Positions 15,538 through 63,035 of a stretch of DNA of 64,000 nt are shown here, in pieces. The position numbers and the translations under genes are program-made. A model generated the notes under the pieces. It saw nothing but the letters and a program-made list of their open reading frames with translations. It was not told the origin of the DNA and ran no database searches. Positions within the stretch are counted from its first letter, which is position 1. Every line of letters starts with the position of its first letter. The stretch is from the human T2T-CHM13v2.0 reference genome, Homo sapiens. The stretch lies in assembly GCF_009914755.1 (NCBI RefSeq), contig NC_060947.1, one strand, 5' to 3'.

Positions 15538-15866
15538 TATTTGGTTTTTTTTTTGGTTAAGTGGTGTAACCACAGAATGTTTTTGTAACTTTTACAAATA
15601 TATTCATTTGTAATGTTATTATCAAAAATATTCATTGGGGATTATGCAATAAAGCAAGTCTTCAACATCTACATAACATATGAGAGTGTTATTGGTACTT
15701 AATGAAAGCCTATCTTTAAAAGAAGTAGACATTCCTTGAGGGAAAAGTGTTACACAATTGAGAATTTTGATTAGTCTTATTGCTTTACTGTGATTCACCA
15801 TAGACTGATCTCTTAGTAAAATGTTGCTTCACTTTGATTTCAGGAGTCTTCCTACGTCACTGAATA

Positions 15867-15898
15867 ATGAATGAAGATGAGAGGGGAAAAGAGAAGAG
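15867..15898 (+). promoter_or_regulatory. Out-of-frame upstream ATG opening an overlapping uORF (31 aa after splicing; stop TGA at 19024-19026)
   Basis: ATG at 15867 (A at -3) reads MNEDERGKEKR|QSQSKKLSKEIKLDSIISYL*. Confidence 0.7.
15871..15898 (+). CDS. PASD1: PASD1 first coding exon (exon 15844-15898; CDS MKMRGEKRR + 1 nt)
   Basis: tttcag acceptor ends at 15843; ATG at 15871 is preceded by in-frame TAA TGA; GTATGC donor at 15899; 28 nt (phase 1) splices in frame to 18963; matches the recalled PASD1 N-terminus. Confidence 0.93.
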
Positions 15899-16283
15899 GT
15901 ATGCATTCATAACTGACTGACATTTCTGTCAAAGCCCTCTCCCTCGTCCTGTGTTCCCGTTTCACATCTAGCAAAATGCTACTTCCTCAGGGAAGCCTGA
16001 TTCACTCAGAGAAATGTGGTTTCTCCAGTGTTTTTTTTTCATAACTCTCAGCTCCAGCTCTATTATAATACTTAGCACATCACCTGTTTACCTGACAGCC
16101 CTCTTCCTCAAACTGTGTCCTCCATGCCTTGCACAGTGCCTGCCCAGAGCTGACTCTAAGGGTTGTCAAATGACTGACAAGTATACAGTCCCTGATATTT
16201 TTAGAAGACAGTTTTTGAGCCTTGGCTTGCCTACAGCTTAAATTCATTTGTGTTTGAGAAGATAAATTAACTTACTTTTCCAG

Positions 16284-16370
16284 ATCAAACTTCTAAAATA
16301 AATTCAAGTACACTGATCAAAAAGTTTTTGTCAAAAGTTTGCAGTATGATCTGTGGTATCCAATGGATAC
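16284..16370 (+). pseudogene. Candidate decayed remnant of the bHLH exon
   Basis: ttaacttacttttccag|A acceptor; in-phase reading SNF*NKFKYTDQKVFVKSL resembles [21 protein letters not shown]; expected intron position; similarity is weak. Confidence 0.35.
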
Positions 16371-16600
16371 ATTTGATACATTGTGGAATGGCTAAATCCA
16401 GCTAATTGATATATGCATTACCTCACATACTTAACTTTTTCTGATGAGACCACATAAAATCTACTCTCTTAGCAATTCTCAAGTGTACAATATACTGTTA
16501 TTTACTGTAGTCACCATGATGTGCAATAGAACTCTTGAACTTACTCTAACTGAAATCTTATATCCTTTGTCCAACATCTCCCCACTCCTTCATCTCTTAC
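16370..16600 (-). mobile_element. L1MA-type 3' end fragment
   Basis: tacattgtggaatggctaaat...atgcattacctcacatactt...aaaatctactctcttagcaatt. Confidence 0.8.
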
Positions 16601-16609
16601 TTTTGATGA

Positions 16610-17570
<961 letters not shown>

Positions 17571-18962
17571 AAAAGAGGTTCAGTTTAACAACAGGTACTG
17601 AATCCCTGCCATGACCTAAGTACTATGTTAGACGTTGGGGATATGATGAAGAACTGGATATGATGCACACCTTAGAGAATAAACAAAAACAAGTTCATGG
17701 GTAATAGTAAAGTAGAAAAGTCCTTTATGATTTATTTATAAAATACAGTGGTTATCCTTTCTTGGCAATATATGAACTCCCCTCTCTTTTTTATTTCTTT
17801 GAATGAAGTCTAGGAGATGAAAGTTATGAGATGGAACTGGAAGGCAATGGAGAAATTTCTTCAGAAATTGACTATGGAAGAGTGTCATGGGTTGTTTCTT
17901 GAGTTTGAAGAGCTATGCCTAGAATTGAGTTTCCAAGCTGGGACAGTGGTCAGGATCACTGATCCTGACTCATTTATGCAGTTGGCATGGTTTACTTTTC
18001 ATGTTACTCCTATTTCACACCCAGTTACACACCCTATTTTCATTCCCTCATCAGTGAGGGCTCTAAAGCTCTCTTTATGCATGGCCTCCCTCTTACCCAA
18101 CTCTACTCCTAGGAAAGAGTCAGAGACTCATGCCTGTCAAGAAAGCAATAGCCACTGTCAACATTATCCTTGTCATAGGATTTTACATTTTTAATAGAGA
18201 TCAAAGTTGTATGCTATGGGTCTCATTTTTCTGTGAGGAGAAGGAACTAATGTTTATTGACATGAAGCATTAAAATCACTTGAGATTGGAGGGCTGTGTT
18301 AGTGAAGTCCCTTTGCTAGTGAAGTTAGTGGAGTAGGGTGGAGTTGGGGAGGTAGAGAGGAGCACATGTTGACAGCAAAGACTAAGCACAGGAGCAGAAA
18401 CACACTTCTCATTGAGGAAACCAGAAAACCCTGAAGAATGTGATAGGACAGATGGGGGAGAGGACAGTACCAGGAGCTTTGAAGAGATAAAAGATAAGGC
18501 TTGAAGATATTCTAGTTAAGGAACCTTGTGCAAAGCTTAAATAGATGAAGCTAAAGAGTGGAATTTCATAATTTAGTTAGGACTAGGGAAGGGCTTTGGG
18601 AGTCTGGATCTGCTTAGAACCCCTTGACTTACCTGGCAGATTATGGATACTGGGTTTTGGTAGAATTCAAGAGGAAAAAAAGAACTAGAAGTTGAAAAAT
18701 CATAAAATTGTTGGACAGGTCATAATGTGTGTGGTAGAAATTGAGTTGGATGATCTTCAAAGTCTTTTTCAATTCCAAACACTTCTGGGTTTATGATCAT
18801 TTATATACAATTAGTTAGCCAACATCAGATCCTTCATTAGCACTCAGCATTTTCTCATAAGAGTCTTTTCTATAAATTAAGTATAACTTTGAAAAATCTA
18901 ATACCCATAGCTAATCATTTTAATGTGACACTGTTCTGTACTTTCTTCCTTTTTCTAAAAAG

Positions 18963-19051
18963 ACAAAGTCAATCCAAAAAGCTCTCAAAGGAAATTAAAC
19001 TGGATTCCATCATTTCCTACCTATGATTACTTCAACCAAGTGACGCTACAG
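18963..19051 (+). CDS. PASD1: PASD1 coding exon 2 (89 nt) DKVNPKSSQRKLNWIPSFPTYDYFNQVTLQ
   Basis: Pyrimidine tract + AAG acceptor, CAG|GTAAGA donor; W-x-PSF motif homologous to the CLOCK/NPAS2 WKP(S/T)F region preceding PAS-A. Confidence 0.95.
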
Positions 19052-21259: not shown

Positions 21260-24200
21260 ACTTAAAATTTTATCTTACAAAAATATACATAACATATAGT
21301 AACACTTAAAAAAATAGTACAGGTGACACCGAGCTTAAGAAATAGAGCATTACCAGATCCTTTGAAATCCCTTTGTCGTAATCTTCTTCTTCCACACCAC
21401 TTCTTCCCTACTATTTCCTGAGTTCTGTATCAATATTTCTTTGCTTTGCTTTGTATTTTTAGGACATGTGTATGCATCTCTAAGTGATATGTTGTTTTCT
21501 TTTGCATGATTTTCACCTTTATATAAATGGAATTATATTGGATGTATTCTTCTCTGACTTGATATTTTTGCTCAACCTTTCTTTTTCAATTCATCCATGA
21601 TATTGCATGTAACTCTAGTGCATTCATTTTTACTTCTGTATTCTTGTTAGAACATACTACACAATTACTTACCCATTTTGCTGTTGATGGGCACTAGAAA
21701 TCTGTTTTAGCTCATGCTCCTTAGGAAGTAGAGGCTGAAGCAAAATTTATATGCTAAGGTTTTAGTGGGATATGCAATCTCAGGATAGCGAGGGTGAGGG
21801 GGAAAGTAAGGCAGGGAAGAAGGGAACTGAAATATAGGGTAGTTTATTACCAAGCTGGATAGAGCTTCACAAGAACACACAGCGGGTTGTTCAGTCACTC
21901 TTAAAACTATGTAAAAGGCACCACACCTTGAAATAGTCTGTATAGGGGAGGAAGGGAAAATACTGTATCTACCAGTTCCTTTCTTTCTCCTGTCATTAGT
22001 CAAAAGTCACACCCAGGATGTTAGCAATTCTGTCCTTTGGGTTACCTGGCTTTTCTGGAAACCCAATGGGGAACCCAGATCCCATGCTCCGAGGTGGATG
22101 AAGTTACTGCCTTCATGAATCCAGTCCCTTTGGATGGATACTGAAGCACCTAGTGCTGGCGGAGTTAGGAGACTAGGTTGGGACTGCAAAAGCAAAGCTA
22201 ACATCCCTGGCTTGATTGAGGGTGGGATGGGGTATGAATCTTGAGGAGGCGCATAAACTGAGTCTGGTATAGCTGTAGGTTTTTGTTATTGTGAGCAGGT
22301 TTGGTTTGAACGTTTTTGTTCATATATCCTCTTCCATATAAGCAAGAGTGTTTCTAGGTGTATGTCTAGGAGTGAGATTGCTGGAGGGTAGGGTGGAGTG
22401 GTAGGGTCGCTCCCTCTACATGAAAATGACAATGCTTTTCAAGTGACTCTGTTTCACTGTGTATTTCACTGTTCTTTTATATTCTTAGTAGTAGTGGATG
22501 AAAGTTCTTATTGCTCCACATCCTTGCTAACAATTTATTGTCTAATTTTTAAATTTTTGTCAATTGGGTGGGAATGGAATGGCGTCTTGTTTCATTACAA
22601 ATGACAATGAGCCTCTTTTCACCAATTTTGAGGCCACTTGTGTTTCCTCTTCTATGAGATGCTTGTTTCTAGCCTTTGCTCAGTTTCTTATGGTATTGTT
22701 CTTTCTAATTATTCATATGTTGGAGATTTTTAAAATAGATTCTGGAAACGAATCACTTGCTAGTTATGTGTTGCAAAATTCTTGTTCTAGTTTGTAGCTT
22801 GCCTTTTCACAATTTAAGGTGACTTTTGACAAATTATTAATTTTAAAGTAATCAAATTTACCAATCAAAGGGTGTTTACTTTCCTGTTTAAAAAATCCTT
22901 ACCTACCACAAGGTAATAAATATATTCTCTTATATTTTATTTTAAAAGCTTTAACGTTTTATCTATTATATTTAATGTGTTCATACTTTTTGAGTTATTT
23001 CTTGTGTATGCCATGAAGGAGAAACATTACAAAGATAAGAGAATATTCTAAACTAGTGATTTCATTCTTTAATGATGATGTGATTGGTTATATTTTTTAC
23101 TTCTTCCCAAGTCACTTTTTGCAATTTATATGTTTTTAAGACTTGCTTTCAAATTTATTGGCATAAAGTTGTTCATAATATTCTCTTATCTTCATAATGT
23201 CTAAAGCTTCTGTAATGATATCCACTTTTCACTCCTAATATTGTTTGTGTTTTTTGCCCCATGATTCATCTTACCAGAGGTTTGTCGATTTTAATGTTCT
23301 TTTCAAAGAATTGACTTTTAACATTCTTGATTCTGTCCATTGTGTCATTATTTTTTGTTTTATTAATTTCTGCTCTTATTTTTATTATTTACTTTTTTCT
23401 ACTTTTTGGGGTTCATTTTTTGTTCTCTAACAATTTTAGATTATTTAATTCATTGATTTGTAACCAATTTTCTTTTCTAATATATACATTTAGGCGAAGA
23501 TTCCCAAGTGTTGTTTTAGCTGCTTTTCACAGGTCTCAATAAATAGTGTTTAAAAAATTATTCTATTATAAATACTTTGTAATCTCCATTATTACTTATT
23601 ATTTGGCCTATTTTTTTATTACGGTAAAATGTATATAACACGAATTTACCGTTTAATCACTTTTAAATGTAGAATTCAGTGGCATTAAGTACATTCACAT
23701 TATTGTGCAACCATCACCACCATCCATTTCCAGCTTTGAAAATCTTGCGTAACTGAAACTCTGTACTCAAACAATAACTCCCCATTCTCACTTTCTCCCA
23801 GTTCCTGGTAACCACCTTTCTACTTTCTGCATCTATCAATTTGGCTATCCTAGGAACTTCATATAAATGGAATCATACAGTAATGTCCTTTTGTGACATG
23901 TTTCGCTTAGTATAATATCTTCATGTTTCATCCATGTTGTAGTATGTGGCAAAATTCTCTTTCCTTTTAAGGCTGAATAATATTTTGTTGTTTGTTACGC
24001 ATTTTGGTTATACATTCATCTGTTGGACACTTAGATTGTTTACACCTTTTGGCCATTATGAATAATGCTTCTGTGAGCATAGGTGTACACATACCTGTTT
24101 GAGTCCCTGCTTTCAGGGTGTTTTTTTTTTTTTTCACTATACACTCAGAAGTGGAAATGCTGAATCACATGATAGTTCTATGTTTAGTTATTTGAGAGAC

Positions 24201-25540
24201 TGCCGTAGAGTTTTCTATAGCAGCTTTGTCATTTTATACTACCATCAATAGTGCATAGGGGTTTCAATTTCTTCATATCTTGTCCCAAAACTATTTGTTT
24301 TGTTTTAATCATAGCCCATCCTAATGGGTTTGAGGAGTTCATGACTTTATACAAATAGAGAATCCTGCTTCAATTATTTGGGCTTCCTGAATCTTAAGAT
24401 TGGTGTATTTTATTACTTCTGGATAATTTTCCACCTATATCTCACTGAGTATTTCCTCTTCTCTGTTATATTATCTCCTTCAGGAACACTGATCAGACAT
24501 ATGTTGGACTTTCTGATTCTCTTCTCCATGAAATGAATTTATCTTATTTTTCCATTTGTATCTCCTTGTGTTACATTCTGAGTCATTTCCTCAGCTCTTT
24601 CCAGCTCAAAAATTTTATTTCTGGCTGTGTTCTAACATGCTACTTAACCTATACATTAAGTTTCTAATTTTGATGACAATATCATCTATAGACATTTTGT
24701 TTGATTATGTTTTATATCTCACGAGTCAGTTTTGAGTCTCTTGTTTCTTCATATTTCTAGTGCCCTGTGTTATTTATTTAAGCCTATTAAGCATACTTAT
24801 TTTGTATTCTGTATCTGATAATTCCAATAAGTTATTTTTAAATATGATTCTTTATTTTATTATGTCTGTTGCCTCTTATTCGTAATGCTTCATCTCTTCC
24901 TGTGTTTTATTTTTATTATAAGCTCATATTATTTGTAATTTTATCTACATGAATTCTTTGAACCCTCACTTTAAAATAATTCTCTAGATGTGATTTTGAT
25001 TTCCTTTTATTAGACATATGGGGTCAGGATCACTTTAAACTAAATATTAGACTTTGGTTGTTGAGGGCCACACAGGTAGTATATGAATTCTAGCTCCAAG
25101 TTTGTGTGAAGGTGGGCTTCTGCTTAGTACCTCCTAAAGTTGACTATTTTCTCTTTTCCTACTCTTCCCAGGATGGAGGCTGAGGCAGACATGCACATTC
25201 CCTGTCTCCTTTCACTGGATAAGATTTTTCTGTTTTACCTGTTGAAAGTGTCTCCCTTTTGGAGACCTGGCTTTGTACTGTGGTCTTTGATTTCACCTCC
25301 TACCTTGTACAGGCCTCGGCTTTGCTTTTGTCCCCCAAGCTCTAGGCTATCAGTGTTGGAAGATAGTCTCAAGGCAAATACAGGGTCTAATATTCTCCAG
25401 TGTCTTAATTCTCACAATCTAGTCATTTCTGATATCAGGTTATTTCCCTTACTTTACCAATAGCTTGGTCCTGTTTTGAAAAATAAGTTTTAATCTATTT
25501 TATTCATCATTTTAGATATTCTCTACCAGGAGGCATTTGT
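21260..25540 (-). mobile_element. Nested old L1M fragments (includes an L1MB-like 3' end at about 23610-24330)
   Basis: cagtggcattaagtacattcacattattgtgcaaccatcaccaccatcc and other L1M motifs; boundaries approximate. Confidence 0.6.
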
Positions 25541-39767: not shown

Positions 39768-39850
39768 CAACTTTACACTTCAAAGGCAGTCAGTGATGAA
39801 GCTGTACTTACACAAGATTCAGATGAGGAACCTTTTGTGGGAGAGCTCAG
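39768..39850 (+). CDS. PASD1: PASD1 coding exon 7 (83 nt) QLYTSKAVSDEAVLTQDSDEEPFVGEL(S)
   Basis: ttctgcag acceptor, AG|GTGAGA donor, phase 0-2. Confidence 0.94.
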
Positions 39851-60009: not shown

Positions 60010-60152
60010 TGATACAATTTGGACAAAGAAAGTTGTGCTTGTATCTGTTCCTAACCAAAGGCCAGCAGTGGATATGGCTGCAAACCCTCTGTTACATGTT
60101 ATATCCCATATCCTGAGCCCAAACTCATTATTTACATGCACAAACTAGTTAG
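60010..60152 (+). pseudogene. Fossil (pseudo)exon of the lost PAS-B domain, second part
   Basis: Translates (L)[31 protein letters not shown]-[5-nt deletion]-PKLIIYMHKLV(S) vs recalled NPAS2 [50 protein letters not shown]; AG at 60008-60009, GT at 60153; phases 1-2. Confidence 0.93.
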
Positions 60153-62947: not shown

Positions 62948-63035
62948 TAGCTCTCAAGGTCAAAGAGGACACACTAGCATGAAAGCCGTGTACGTTGAAC
63001 CCGCTGCTGCTGCTGCTGCTGCTGCTATCTCAGAC
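62948..63035 (+). CDS. PASD1: PASD1 coding exon 8 (88 nt) (S)SSQGQRGHTSMKAVYVEPAAAAAAAAISD
   Basis: Pyrimidine tract + TAGTAG acceptor, GAC|GTATGT donor, phase 2-0; includes (GCT)8; matches the recalled PASD1 sequence. Confidence 0.93.
63003..63026 (+). repeat. (GCT)8 coding trinucleotide repeat encoding poly-Ala
   Basis: Eight perfect GCT codons in PASD1 exon 62948-63035. Confidence 0.97.

What the first reader, a model, noticed from the sequence alone, without database searches (positions are those of the whole stretch)
15867..15898. Ancestral NPAS2-like start codon survives out of frame; the current N-terminus comes from a frame switch
Seen: ATG at 15867, 4 nt before the PASD1 ATG, reads MNEDERGKEKR over 32 nt to the donor (phase 2). 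Knowledge (recalled): NPAS2 begins MDEDEKDRAKR with a 32-nt first coding exon, followed by a 149-nt bHLH exon (phase 2 to 1). Inference: loss of that non-3n exon broke the frame, which was rescued by an overlapping ATG at +4 (28 nt, phase 1). MKMRGEKRR would then be the alternative-frame reading of the ancestral exon.
Basis: partly seen in the sequence, partly recalled or inferred. Interest (0 to 1): 0.85.

Follow-up and report, generated by a model that had tools for sequence, protein, structure and literature searches.

The report
PASD1 start codon frame switch
Human PASD1 still carries the start codon of its DNA-binding ancestor four bases before its current one, and because the DNA-binding exon is gone the protein now begins in a shifted reading of that same old exon.

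Summary
ATG 15867 reads MNEDERGKEK+AG to the donor at 15899. The annotated ATG 15871 reads MKMRGEKRR+G.

Evidence from the same human genome:
- The 32 bases from 15867 align without gaps to the first 32 coding bases of NPAS2 (24/32) and to the matching CLOCK exon (23/32). All three end at the same donor.
- The next exon in NPAS2 and CLOCK is the 149-nt bHLH exon, phase 2 to 1.
- The exon after that enters in phase 1 in all three genes.

Evidence from other species:
- PASD1 of platypus, birds, reptiles, frogs and coelacanth starts MDEDEKDRAKR and has an intact bHLH.
- 29 of 60 eutherian PASD1 models, gibbon X1 included, start in this frame and carry a decayed HLH-like exon.

Human DNA shows no trace of that exon. 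The old ATG therefore now opens a 31-codon out-of-frame ORF.

Refinements:
- It is PASD1's own ancestral start.
- The +4 and +10 ATGs pre-existed, since NPAS2 has them too.
- Whether exon skipping preceded the deletion is open.

No description of this was found in the papers searched. It is a neat case of a known kind of event, of moderate interest.

The parts
15844..15898 (+). PASD1 exon that holds the starts (55 nt). It is homologous to the NPAS2 first coding exon (54 nt by my reading of its acceptor) and to a 60-nt, fully coding CLOCK exon.
   Evidence: The NPAS2 and CLOCK acceptors are my reading of AG after a pyrimidine tract, not an annotation.
15867..15869 (+). Ancestral start codon (MNEDERGKEKR frame). 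It is now out of frame with the PASD1 coding sequence. Context: A at -3, A at +4.
15871..15873 (+). Annotated PASD1 start, four bases downstream (MKMRGEKRR frame). Context: T at -3, A at +4.
   Evidence: hub annotation.
15877..15879 (+). Third ATG (+10), in the annotated frame (Met3), with A at -3. Liggins et al. 2004 proposed it as a possible true start.
   Evidence: (passages of PMC2364759).
15899..18962 (+). Intron where the bHLH or HLH-like exon lies in NPAS2, CLOCK and long-form PASD1 models. No trace of that exon was detected in human.
18963..19051 (+). Next coding exon (89 nt, KVNPK..WIPSF..). It starts with 2 nt that complete a codon, like the 92-nt NPAS2 and CLOCK exons. The ORF from ATG 15867 stops here at TGA 19024-19026.

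Best explanation
The exon at 15844-15898 is the PASD1 copy of the CLOCK-family exon that precedes the bHLH exon, and ATG 15867 is the family's old start codon. In the ancestor, translation ran from this ATG (32 nt, phase 2) into a non-3n bHLH exon (149 nt in NPAS2 and CLOCK; about 155 nt inferred for PASD1). That exon handed phase 1 to the next exon. In eutherians the bHLH exon decayed to an HLH-like remnant. In the human lineage its DNA is gone, so the first coding exon is spliced straight to the third. From the old ATG this splice is a +1 shift that ends after 31 codons, at TGA 19024-19026. The ATGs at +4 and +10 lie in the acidic MDEDE codons (ATG GAT GAA GAT GAG) and already existed. They give 28 or 22 nt, both phase 1, and so read through into the PAS-A region. 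The annotated N-terminus MKMRGEKRR is therefore the +1-frame reading of the ancestral MNEDERGKEKR exon.

Shown here: the exon homology, the exon phases, the frames, outgroup use of the old frame, and the absence of the exon in human DNA.

Inferred: the order of events, the 155-nt size, and that the old ATG now acts as an overlapping upstream ORF. It has the better -3 context, so it should draw off scanning ribosomes, and PASD1 would then be made by leaky scanning to 15871 or 15877.
For: Exon homology within the human genome:
- Ungapped identity of the 32 nt is 24/32 to NPAS2 and 23/32 to CLOCK, with the donor at the same base. These were the only matches at >=21/32 in the 100 kb and 80 kb scanned.
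- The exons are 55, 54 and 60 nt.
- The bHLH exon is 149 nt in both NPAS2 and CLOCK.
- The following exon starts in phase 1 in all three genes: 89, 92 and 92 nt.

Frames:
- The spliced frame from 15867 gives a 31-residue ORF. The frame from 15871 stays open.
- NPAS2 has ATGs at 0, +4 and +10, exactly as PASD1 does, and its +4 frame also begins MKMR.

Other species:
- Non-mammal and platypus proteins named PASD1 start MDEDEKDRAKR and carry Pfam HLH.
- Of 60 eutherian PASD1 models, 29 start in the old frame with an HLH-like exon, 3 more hold that exon behind another start, 14 start in the +4 frame, and 14 are partial or other.
- Tamandua PASD1 still scores above the Pfam HLH cut-off: 23.4 bits against 20.7.
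- A profile of the eutherian exon finds the platypus bHLH at E 1e-18 and the NPAS2 bHLH at E 2e-7.
- Eutherian long forms and non-mammal PASD1 share a two-residue loop insert (GHGHP / HGYPV). NPAS2, CLOCK and fly Clk lack it.
- The Microcebus long and short models fit one unique 32-nt string. The same method recovers the true human 32-mer.

Absence in human:
- The gibbon, lemur and stoat exon peptides find nothing in the window (tblastn, E<=1).
- Smith-Waterman scores in the intron equal those of shuffled queries: 30-32 against shuffled means of 29-30.
- The Pfam HLH search of the genome gives no hit in the PASD1 locus.
Against: - Use of ATG 15871 or 15877, or of 15867, in human cells is not shown by any data I could reach. 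The start is an annotation and a 2004 prediction.
- All ortholog evidence comes from predicted protein models. Short-form models in other species may be projections of the human protein.
- No DNA of other mammals was available. The 155-nt size, the presence of the +4 ATG in other species and the date of the deletion are therefore inferred.
- Orthology of eutherian PASD1 with non-mammal PASD1 has SH-aLRT 97-98 on the PAS region. However, AU tests do not reject a sister relation to NPAS2 (p 0.167) or to CLOCK (p 0.134).
- A 7-residue exact match to the exon's most conserved motif (YPVKGDR) lies on the minus strand at 25196-25222, in unique sequence. At E 0.12-0.23 it is probably chance, but it is unexplained.
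Confidence: 0.85

Rival explanations
1. Coupled alternative splicing and alternative initiation is an old, regulated feature of eutherian PASD1. Including the HLH-like exon uses the first ATG. Skipping it uses ATG +4. Human merely fixed the short form. The old ATG is kept in human because its 31-codon overlapping ORF tunes PASD1 translation, not because it is a fossil.
For: Short +4-frame models occur outside anthropoids: bears P0028 and P0055, badger P0029, seal P0050, aye-aye P0023 and Microcebus P0024. In Microcebus they occur beside long models P0025 and P0026. The three ATGs are also present in NPAS2. ATG 15867 has A at -3, while 15871 has T.
Against: These are predicted models with no transcript or ribosome data, and short forms may be copied from the human protein by the annotation pipelines. 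Nothing shows constraint on the human 31-codon ORF. Human differs from the gibbon/orang reconstruction at one base inside it.
Confidence: 0.2
2. The out-of-frame ATG and its NPAS2-like reading are a coincidence of a purine-rich exon.
For: The exon is GA-rich. The CLOCK 32-mer finds a second 23/32 match elsewhere in the window, not on the + strand.
Against: The exon order, the donor position and the near-equal exon length all match. The NPAS2 32-mer's best other match in the window is 20/32. Orthologues translate this very frame.
Confidence: 0.02
3. Human still makes a long form from ATG 15867 through an unannotated HLH-like exon, so the old start is not out of use.
For: Gibbon isoform X1 (P0013) starts MNEDEREKEKR with such an exon. 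A weak YPVKGDR match exists at 25196-25222.
Against: No + strand match to the exon exists anywhere in the window. The weak match is on the minus strand, in the wrong intron, and has no similarity beyond 7 residues.
Confidence: 0.03

Closest known systems
NPAS2 first coding exon and 149-nt bHLH exon (human chromosome 2, read here from the same genome)
   Same: There are 32 coding bases from the ATG to the donor, 24/32 identical. ATGs lie at 0, +4 and +10. The next-but-one exon enters in phase 1.
   Different: NPAS2 keeps the bHLH exon, so its first ATG is in frame. PASD1 human has no such exon and is annotated from the +4 ATG.
PASD1 of monotremes, sauropsids, amphibians and coelacanth (named so by NCBI; some entries are named NPAS2 or NPAS2-like)
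   Same: The start is MDEDEKDRAKR, and the two-residue loop insert is shared with eutherian long forms. This is the best tree position for eutherian PASD1.
   Different: These proteins have an intact bHLH and PAS-B and evolve slowly. Eutherian PASD1 sits on a stem branch of 2.68 changes per column. Orthology is not secured by the AU tests.
Overlapping upstream ORFs and leaky scanning between closely spaced AUGs (general eukaryotic translation; recalled knowledge)
   Same: An upstream AUG in a better -3 context, out of frame, ends downstream of the main AUG.
   Different: Here the upstream AUG is the gene's former start codon, only 4 nt away. No translation data were seen.
New protein termini made by frameshift after duplication (survey PMC8872073; I saw only the search listing and the start of the abstract)
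   Same: A paralogue reads ancestral coding DNA in another frame.
   Different: The shift here comes from loss of a non-3n exon together with a pre-existing internal ATG. It affects only 9 residues. PASD1 does not occur in that paper's main text (0 occurrences).

Membership tests
CLOCK/NPAS2/PASD1 exon preceding the bHLH exon | Nucleotide homology without gaps, ending at the same splice donor | tested here: met
   Identity is 24/32 to NPAS2 and 23/32 to CLOCK, with GT following at the same base. These were the only hits at >=21/32 in the 100 kb and 80 kb scanned.
CLOCK/NPAS2/PASD1 exon preceding the bHLH exon | Same exon order and phases (phase 2 out, non-3n bHLH exon, phase 1 into the next exon) | tested here: met
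   The NPAS2 and CLOCK bHLH exons are 149 nt. The next exon starts with 2 nt completing a codon in all three genes. In human PASD1 the middle exon is absent.
CLOCK/NPAS2/PASD1 exon preceding the bHLH exon | Orthologues translate the exon in the 15867 frame | tested here: met
   Platypus, emu, turtle, gecko, caecilian and coelacanth proteins start MDEDEKDRAKR. Of 60 eutherian models, 29 start M[DNEG].. in this frame with the HLH-like exon. These are predicted proteins only.
bHLH-PAS transcription factor (DNA-binding member) | A basic helix-loop-helix domain | tested here: not met
   Human PASD1 has no Pfam HLH, and the PASD1 locus has no HLH hit in the genome search. Tamandua PASD1 scores 23.4 bits (above the cut-off) and alpaca 13.2 bits (below it).
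Overlapping upstream ORF | An upstream AUG, out of frame, whose ORF ends downstream of the main AUG | tested here: met
   ATG 15867 opens a 31-codon ORF that stops at 19024-19026 in the spliced message.
Overlapping upstream ORF | The upstream AUG is translated and lowers output from the main AUG | not testable with these tools
   No ribosome profiling or reporter data were available. Only the contexts were read. 5' UTR exons outside the window were not examined.
Vertebrate PASD1 orthology group (third CLOCK-family paralogue) | Eutherian PASD1 groups with non-mammal PASD1 rather than with NPAS2 or CLOCK | tested here: inconclusive
   For: SH-aLRT 97-98; the shared loop insert; phmmer ranks coelacanth PASD1 (E 1.7e-29) above the NPAS2-like and CLOCK-like proteins (E 1e-19); and the human genome holds only three CLOCK-family loci (run with a stricter first look). 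Against: AU p 0.167 and 0.134 do not reject the alternatives. Synteny was not testable.

The most novel reading that the evidence does not exclude
The triplet of ATGs at 0, +4 and +10 in the acidic MDEDE codons is an inherited frame adapter of the CLOCK family. It lets a transcript that skips the non-3n bHLH exon be translated in frame into a bHLH-less, potentially dominant-negative PAS protein. On this reading, eutherian PASD1 used this as a regulated splice-plus-start switch before human fixed the short form by deletion. By the same arithmetic, an NPAS2 message lacking its 149-nt exon would read in frame from its own +4 ATG (MKMRKTEPR-E-VSAQ..).
Probability: 0.2. Interest if true: 0.7.

Novelty: new member of a known kind. 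Interest (0 to 1): 0.5.

Why it matters
PASD1 is a testis and cancer protein that represses CLOCK:BMAL1 (passage of PMC6310821 citing Michael et al. 2015).

- The finding gives a base-by-base account of how a DNA-binding clock factor became a bHLH-less repressor: an exon was lost and a pre-existing internal ATG restored the frame.
- It shows that the gene is probably the fast-evolving eutherian form of an old third CLOCK-family gene that is still intact in platypus and non-mammals.
- It flags a practical point. The first AUG a ribosome meets in this exon is out of frame and in the better context. This should limit PASD1 output, and it matters for expression constructs, antigen prediction and variant interpretation around the start.

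Tried and rejected
1. A bHLH-like hit at window 23266-23316 (tblastn, E 0.3-0.5 with the NPAS2 and CLOCK bHLH exons). It lies in the wrong intron and inside a dispersed repeat: 298 first-look candidates genome-wide, of which 40 were scored and matched, the window's own copy included. Rejected as chance.

2. The minus-strand SYPVKGDR match at 25196-25222. The sequence is unique in the genome, and there is no similarity on either side. I treat it as chance and leave it listed as unexplained.

3. The Pfam HLH search of the whole genome found the NPAS2 and CLOCK exons but nothing in the PASD1 locus.

4. Searching with single short exons:
- The DNA query was too short, so a longer stretch was used.
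- The 36-residue query was too short, so a 42-residue exon was used.
- P0002 found only itself in the genome.

5. Michael et al. 2015 (PMC4458219) is not held, so its account of PASD1 domain evolution could not be read.

6. Paper searches found no description of the out-of-frame ATG or of a frame switch. Liggins et al. 2004 discuss only Met1 and Met3.

8. AU tests did not reject PASD1+NPAS2 or PASD1+CLOCK.

Full report
**What is there.** The window is human chrX with PASD1 on the + strand.
- The exon 15844-15898 follows acceptor AG 15842-15843 and is followed by donor GT 15899-15900.
- It holds three ATGs, at 15867, 15871 and 15877.
- From 15867 it reads MNEDERGKEK plus two bases, AG. The first base of the next exon, A at 18963, completes AGA = R.
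- From 15871 it reads MKMRGEKRR plus one base. This is the annotated coding start.
- Joined to the following annotated exons, the 15867 frame stops after 31 codons (MNEDERGKEKRQSQSKKLSKEIKLDSIISYL, TGA at 19024-19026). The 15871 frame stays open.

**Homology to NPAS2 and CLOCK, read from the same genome.** The window's own assembly can be searched, and the paralogues were located as follows.
- A PAS-A exon of PASD1 found NPAS2 on contig 2 and CLOCK on contig 4.
- The Pfam HLH model found their bHLH exons, and found nothing in the PASD1 locus.
- I fetched 100 kb of NPAS2 and 80 kb of CLOCK.

Sliding the 32 bases 15867-15898 along the coding strand of each gave one match at 21/32 or better per gene.
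- NPAS2: ATG + 32 nt reading MDEDEKDRAK+AG, 24/32 identical, followed by GT.
- CLOCK..VEEDDKDKAK+AG, 23/32 identical, followed by GT.

The reverse scan agrees.
- The NPAS2 32-mer against the whole window, both strands, scores 24 only at 15867. The next best score is 20.
- The CLOCK 32-mer scores 23 at 15867 and once more elsewhere, not on the + strand. I take that second hit for a purine-rich chance match.

The exons are 55 nt (PASD1), 54 nt (NPAS2) and 60 nt (CLOCK, coding throughout). The NPAS2 and CLOCK sizes rest on my reading of their acceptors.

**Phases.**
- The next exon in NPAS2 (L019:3844-3992) and in CLOCK is 149 nt. It starts with one base that completes the codon and ends with one base of the next, so it runs phase 2 to phase 1.
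- The exon after that is 92 nt in both NPAS2 and CLOCK. It starts with two bases completing a codon and encodes ..QDWKPSFLSNEEF...
- The PASD1 exon 18963-19051 (89 nt..LNWIPSFPTYDYF..) starts the same way.
- Without the middle exon, a start that leaves two bases at the donor is out of frame and a start that leaves one base is in frame.

**Other species.** The protein database holds named eukaryotic models. I classified 60 eutherian PASD1 models by N-terminus.

| Class | Count |
|---|---|
| Start in the old frame (M-D/N-E-..-E-K-R) and continue through a ~51-codon HLH-like exon before KVNPE..WIPSF | 29 |
| Hold that exon behind another predicted start | 3 |
| Start in the +4 frame, directly before KVNP | 14 |
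| Partial or other (three of these, P0054, P0060 and P0064, also show the old start by eye) | 14 |

- The old-frame group covers mustelids, pinnipeds, canids, cat, camelids, horse, rhinoceros, dolphin, squirrel, mole, rabbit, pika, bats, tamandua, mouse lemur X2/X3 and gibbon X1 (P0013, MNEDEREKEKR).
- The +4-frame group covers human, orang-utan, bonobo, colobines, two New World monkeys, aye-aye, one mouse-lemur model, bears, badger and a seal.
- For mouse lemur, the long and short models are compatible with exactly one 32-nt string. They are therefore two readings of one exon. The same procedure returns the true human 32-mer.

Beyond eutherians, proteins that NCBI names PASD1 start MDEDEKDRAKR and carry precomputed Pfam HLH plus PAS-A and PAS-B. 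These come from platypus, birds, turtles, lizards, frogs, caecilians and coelacanth. Some entries are named NPAS2 or NPAS2-like instead. A 2026 paper independently lists a salamander PASD1 with bHLH + PAS-A + PAS-B (passages of PMC13663383).

**The eutherian middle exon is a decayed bHLH.**
- A profile of 27 eutherian copies finds held-out alpaca and dog copies at E 1e-31 to 1e-34, the platypus bHLH at 1e-18 and the NPAS2 bHLH at 2e-7.
- Tamandua PASD1 still passes the Pfam HLH cut-off (23.4 against 20.7 bits). Alpaca scores 13.2 bits. Human and six of the other long forms scanned (nine proteins in all) show none.
- Eutherian long forms and non-mammal PASD1 share a two-residue insert in the loop (GHGHP / HGYPV) that NPAS2, CLOCK and fly Clk lack.
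- That insert gives 51 rather than 49 full codons. If the boundaries are conserved, the PASD1 exon is 155 nt, which is still non-3n. This is inferred from proteins, because no DNA of other animals was available.

**Is eutherian PASD1 the orthologue of that old gene?**
- A likelihood tree of the PAS region, with the bHLH left out, places eutherian PASD1 inside the tetrapod PASD1 clade with SH-aLRT 97-98. Its stem branch is 2.68 changes per column.
- phmmer ranks coelacanth PASD1 (E 1.7e-29) above NPAS2-like and CLOCK-like proteins (about 1e-19).
- Platypus PASD1 finds only three CLOCK-family loci in the human genome, namely NPAS2, CLOCK and PASD1. That search ran with a stricter first look.
- Against this, AU tests do not reject eutherian PASD1 as sister to NPAS2 (p 0.167) or to CLOCK (p 0.134).
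- Orthology is likely but not secured. The frame-switch conclusion does not depend on it, because NPAS2 has the same start and phases.

**Human has lost the exon's DNA.**
- The gibbon, lemur, stoat, alpaca, horse and tamandua N-termini match the window only at the first coding exon and at the exons from 18963 on (tblastn, E<=1).
- Smith-Waterman scores of the exon peptides in all six frames of intron 15899-18962 are 30-32. Shuffled queries give means of 29-30 and maxima of 38-43.
- The profile's best hit in the six-frame window is E 0.12, on the minus strand at 25196-25222 (SYPVKGDR). It lies in unique sequence, in the wrong intron, and has no flanking similarity.
- Since a gibbon model still has the exon, a merely silenced human copy should be nearly intact. 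Deletion is therefore the likely cause.
- Fossil exons can be seen in this gene. A PAS-B exon relic survives at 60010-60152 (see the passing notes). This makes the blank for the HLH exon more telling.

**How it most likely works.**
- The +4 and +10 ATGs are by-products of the codons ATG GAT GAA GAT GAG.
- NPAS2 has ATGs at the same three offsets, and its +4 frame also begins MKMR. CLOCK has only the +10 ATG.
- No new mutation was therefore needed. Once the non-3n exon was skipped or deleted, the pre-existing +1-frame ATGs gave an in-frame message.
- The next in-frame Met is about 45 residues downstream, in LLDGFMITL (P0006). The +4 and +10 starts are thus what keep the WIPSF.. segment ahead of PAS-A.
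- By the usual scanning rules (recalled knowledge), ATG 15867 (A at -3) should be favoured over 15871 (T at -3). ATG 15877 again has A at -3.
- Liggins et al. 2004 also judged Met3 the slightly better start, but did not mention the ATG four bases upstream (passages).
- I infer that the old start now acts as an overlapping upstream ORF and that PASD1 is made by leaky scanning. No translation data were available, and 5' UTR exons outside the window were not examined.

**What stays open.**
- It is open whether exon skipping with the +4 start was already an alternative form in early eutherians, as the short models in carnivores and lemurs hint. Those short models could instead be annotation projections.
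- It is open when the human-lineage deletion happened.
- It is open whether either frame of the 32 nt is under constraint in apes. The gibbon long model plus the orang short model reconstruct a 32-mer that differs from human at one base.

**Novelty.**
- Seven searches of the held papers and the passages read gave no description of the out-of-frame ancestral ATG or of a frame switch.
- The key functional paper (Michael et al. 2015) is not held, so I cannot exclude that it touches on this.
- The kind of event is known: an exon is lost and an internal ATG in another frame takes over.
- This is a clean, well-dated example in a gene of circadian and cancer interest. I rate it of moderate interest.

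Noticed in passing
window 60010-60152 (+): This is a fossil PAS-B exon in the intron between annotated exons 39768-39850 and 62948-63035. It aligns end to end with the NPAS2 and CLOCK PAS-B exons and keeps the AG acceptor and GT donor. It reads ..[13 protein letters not shown].. (13/13 as in platypus PASD1, NPAS2 and CLOCK). A 5-nt deletion is followed by TGA at 60114-60116. None of the 60 eutherian PASD1 models holds this motif.
   Followed up: partly
window 25196-25222 (-): SYPVKGDR lies on the minus strand. It is an exact 7-residue match to the most conserved motif of the eutherian HLH-like exon (profile E 0.12; tblastn E 0.23). The sequence is unique in the genome and has no flanking similarity. 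It is probably chance, but an inverted scrap of the lost exon is not excluded.
   Followed up: partly
window 23240-23440 (+): This stretch belongs to a dispersed repeat (298 first-look candidates genome-wide). By chance it translates to ..DFNVLFKEL.., mimicking bHLH helix 1.
   Followed up: yes
proteins P0088, P0209, P0210, P0318, P0320 (no window coordinates): The same slow-evolving gene is named PASD1 in tetrapods but NPAS2 in gar, shad and some coelacanth entries. In the tree the fish 'npas2' rows group with PASD1, not with the mammal-type NPAS2 rows (SH-aLRT 98). The naming of fish npas2 against PASD1 may need review.
   Followed up: partly
L017:3449-3480 and L020:1608-1699 (human NPAS2): By the same arithmetic, an NPAS2 message that skipped its 149-nt bHLH exon would be in frame from its own +4 ATG (MKMRKTEPR then E-VSAQ..). 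I did not check whether such a transcript exists.
   Followed up: no
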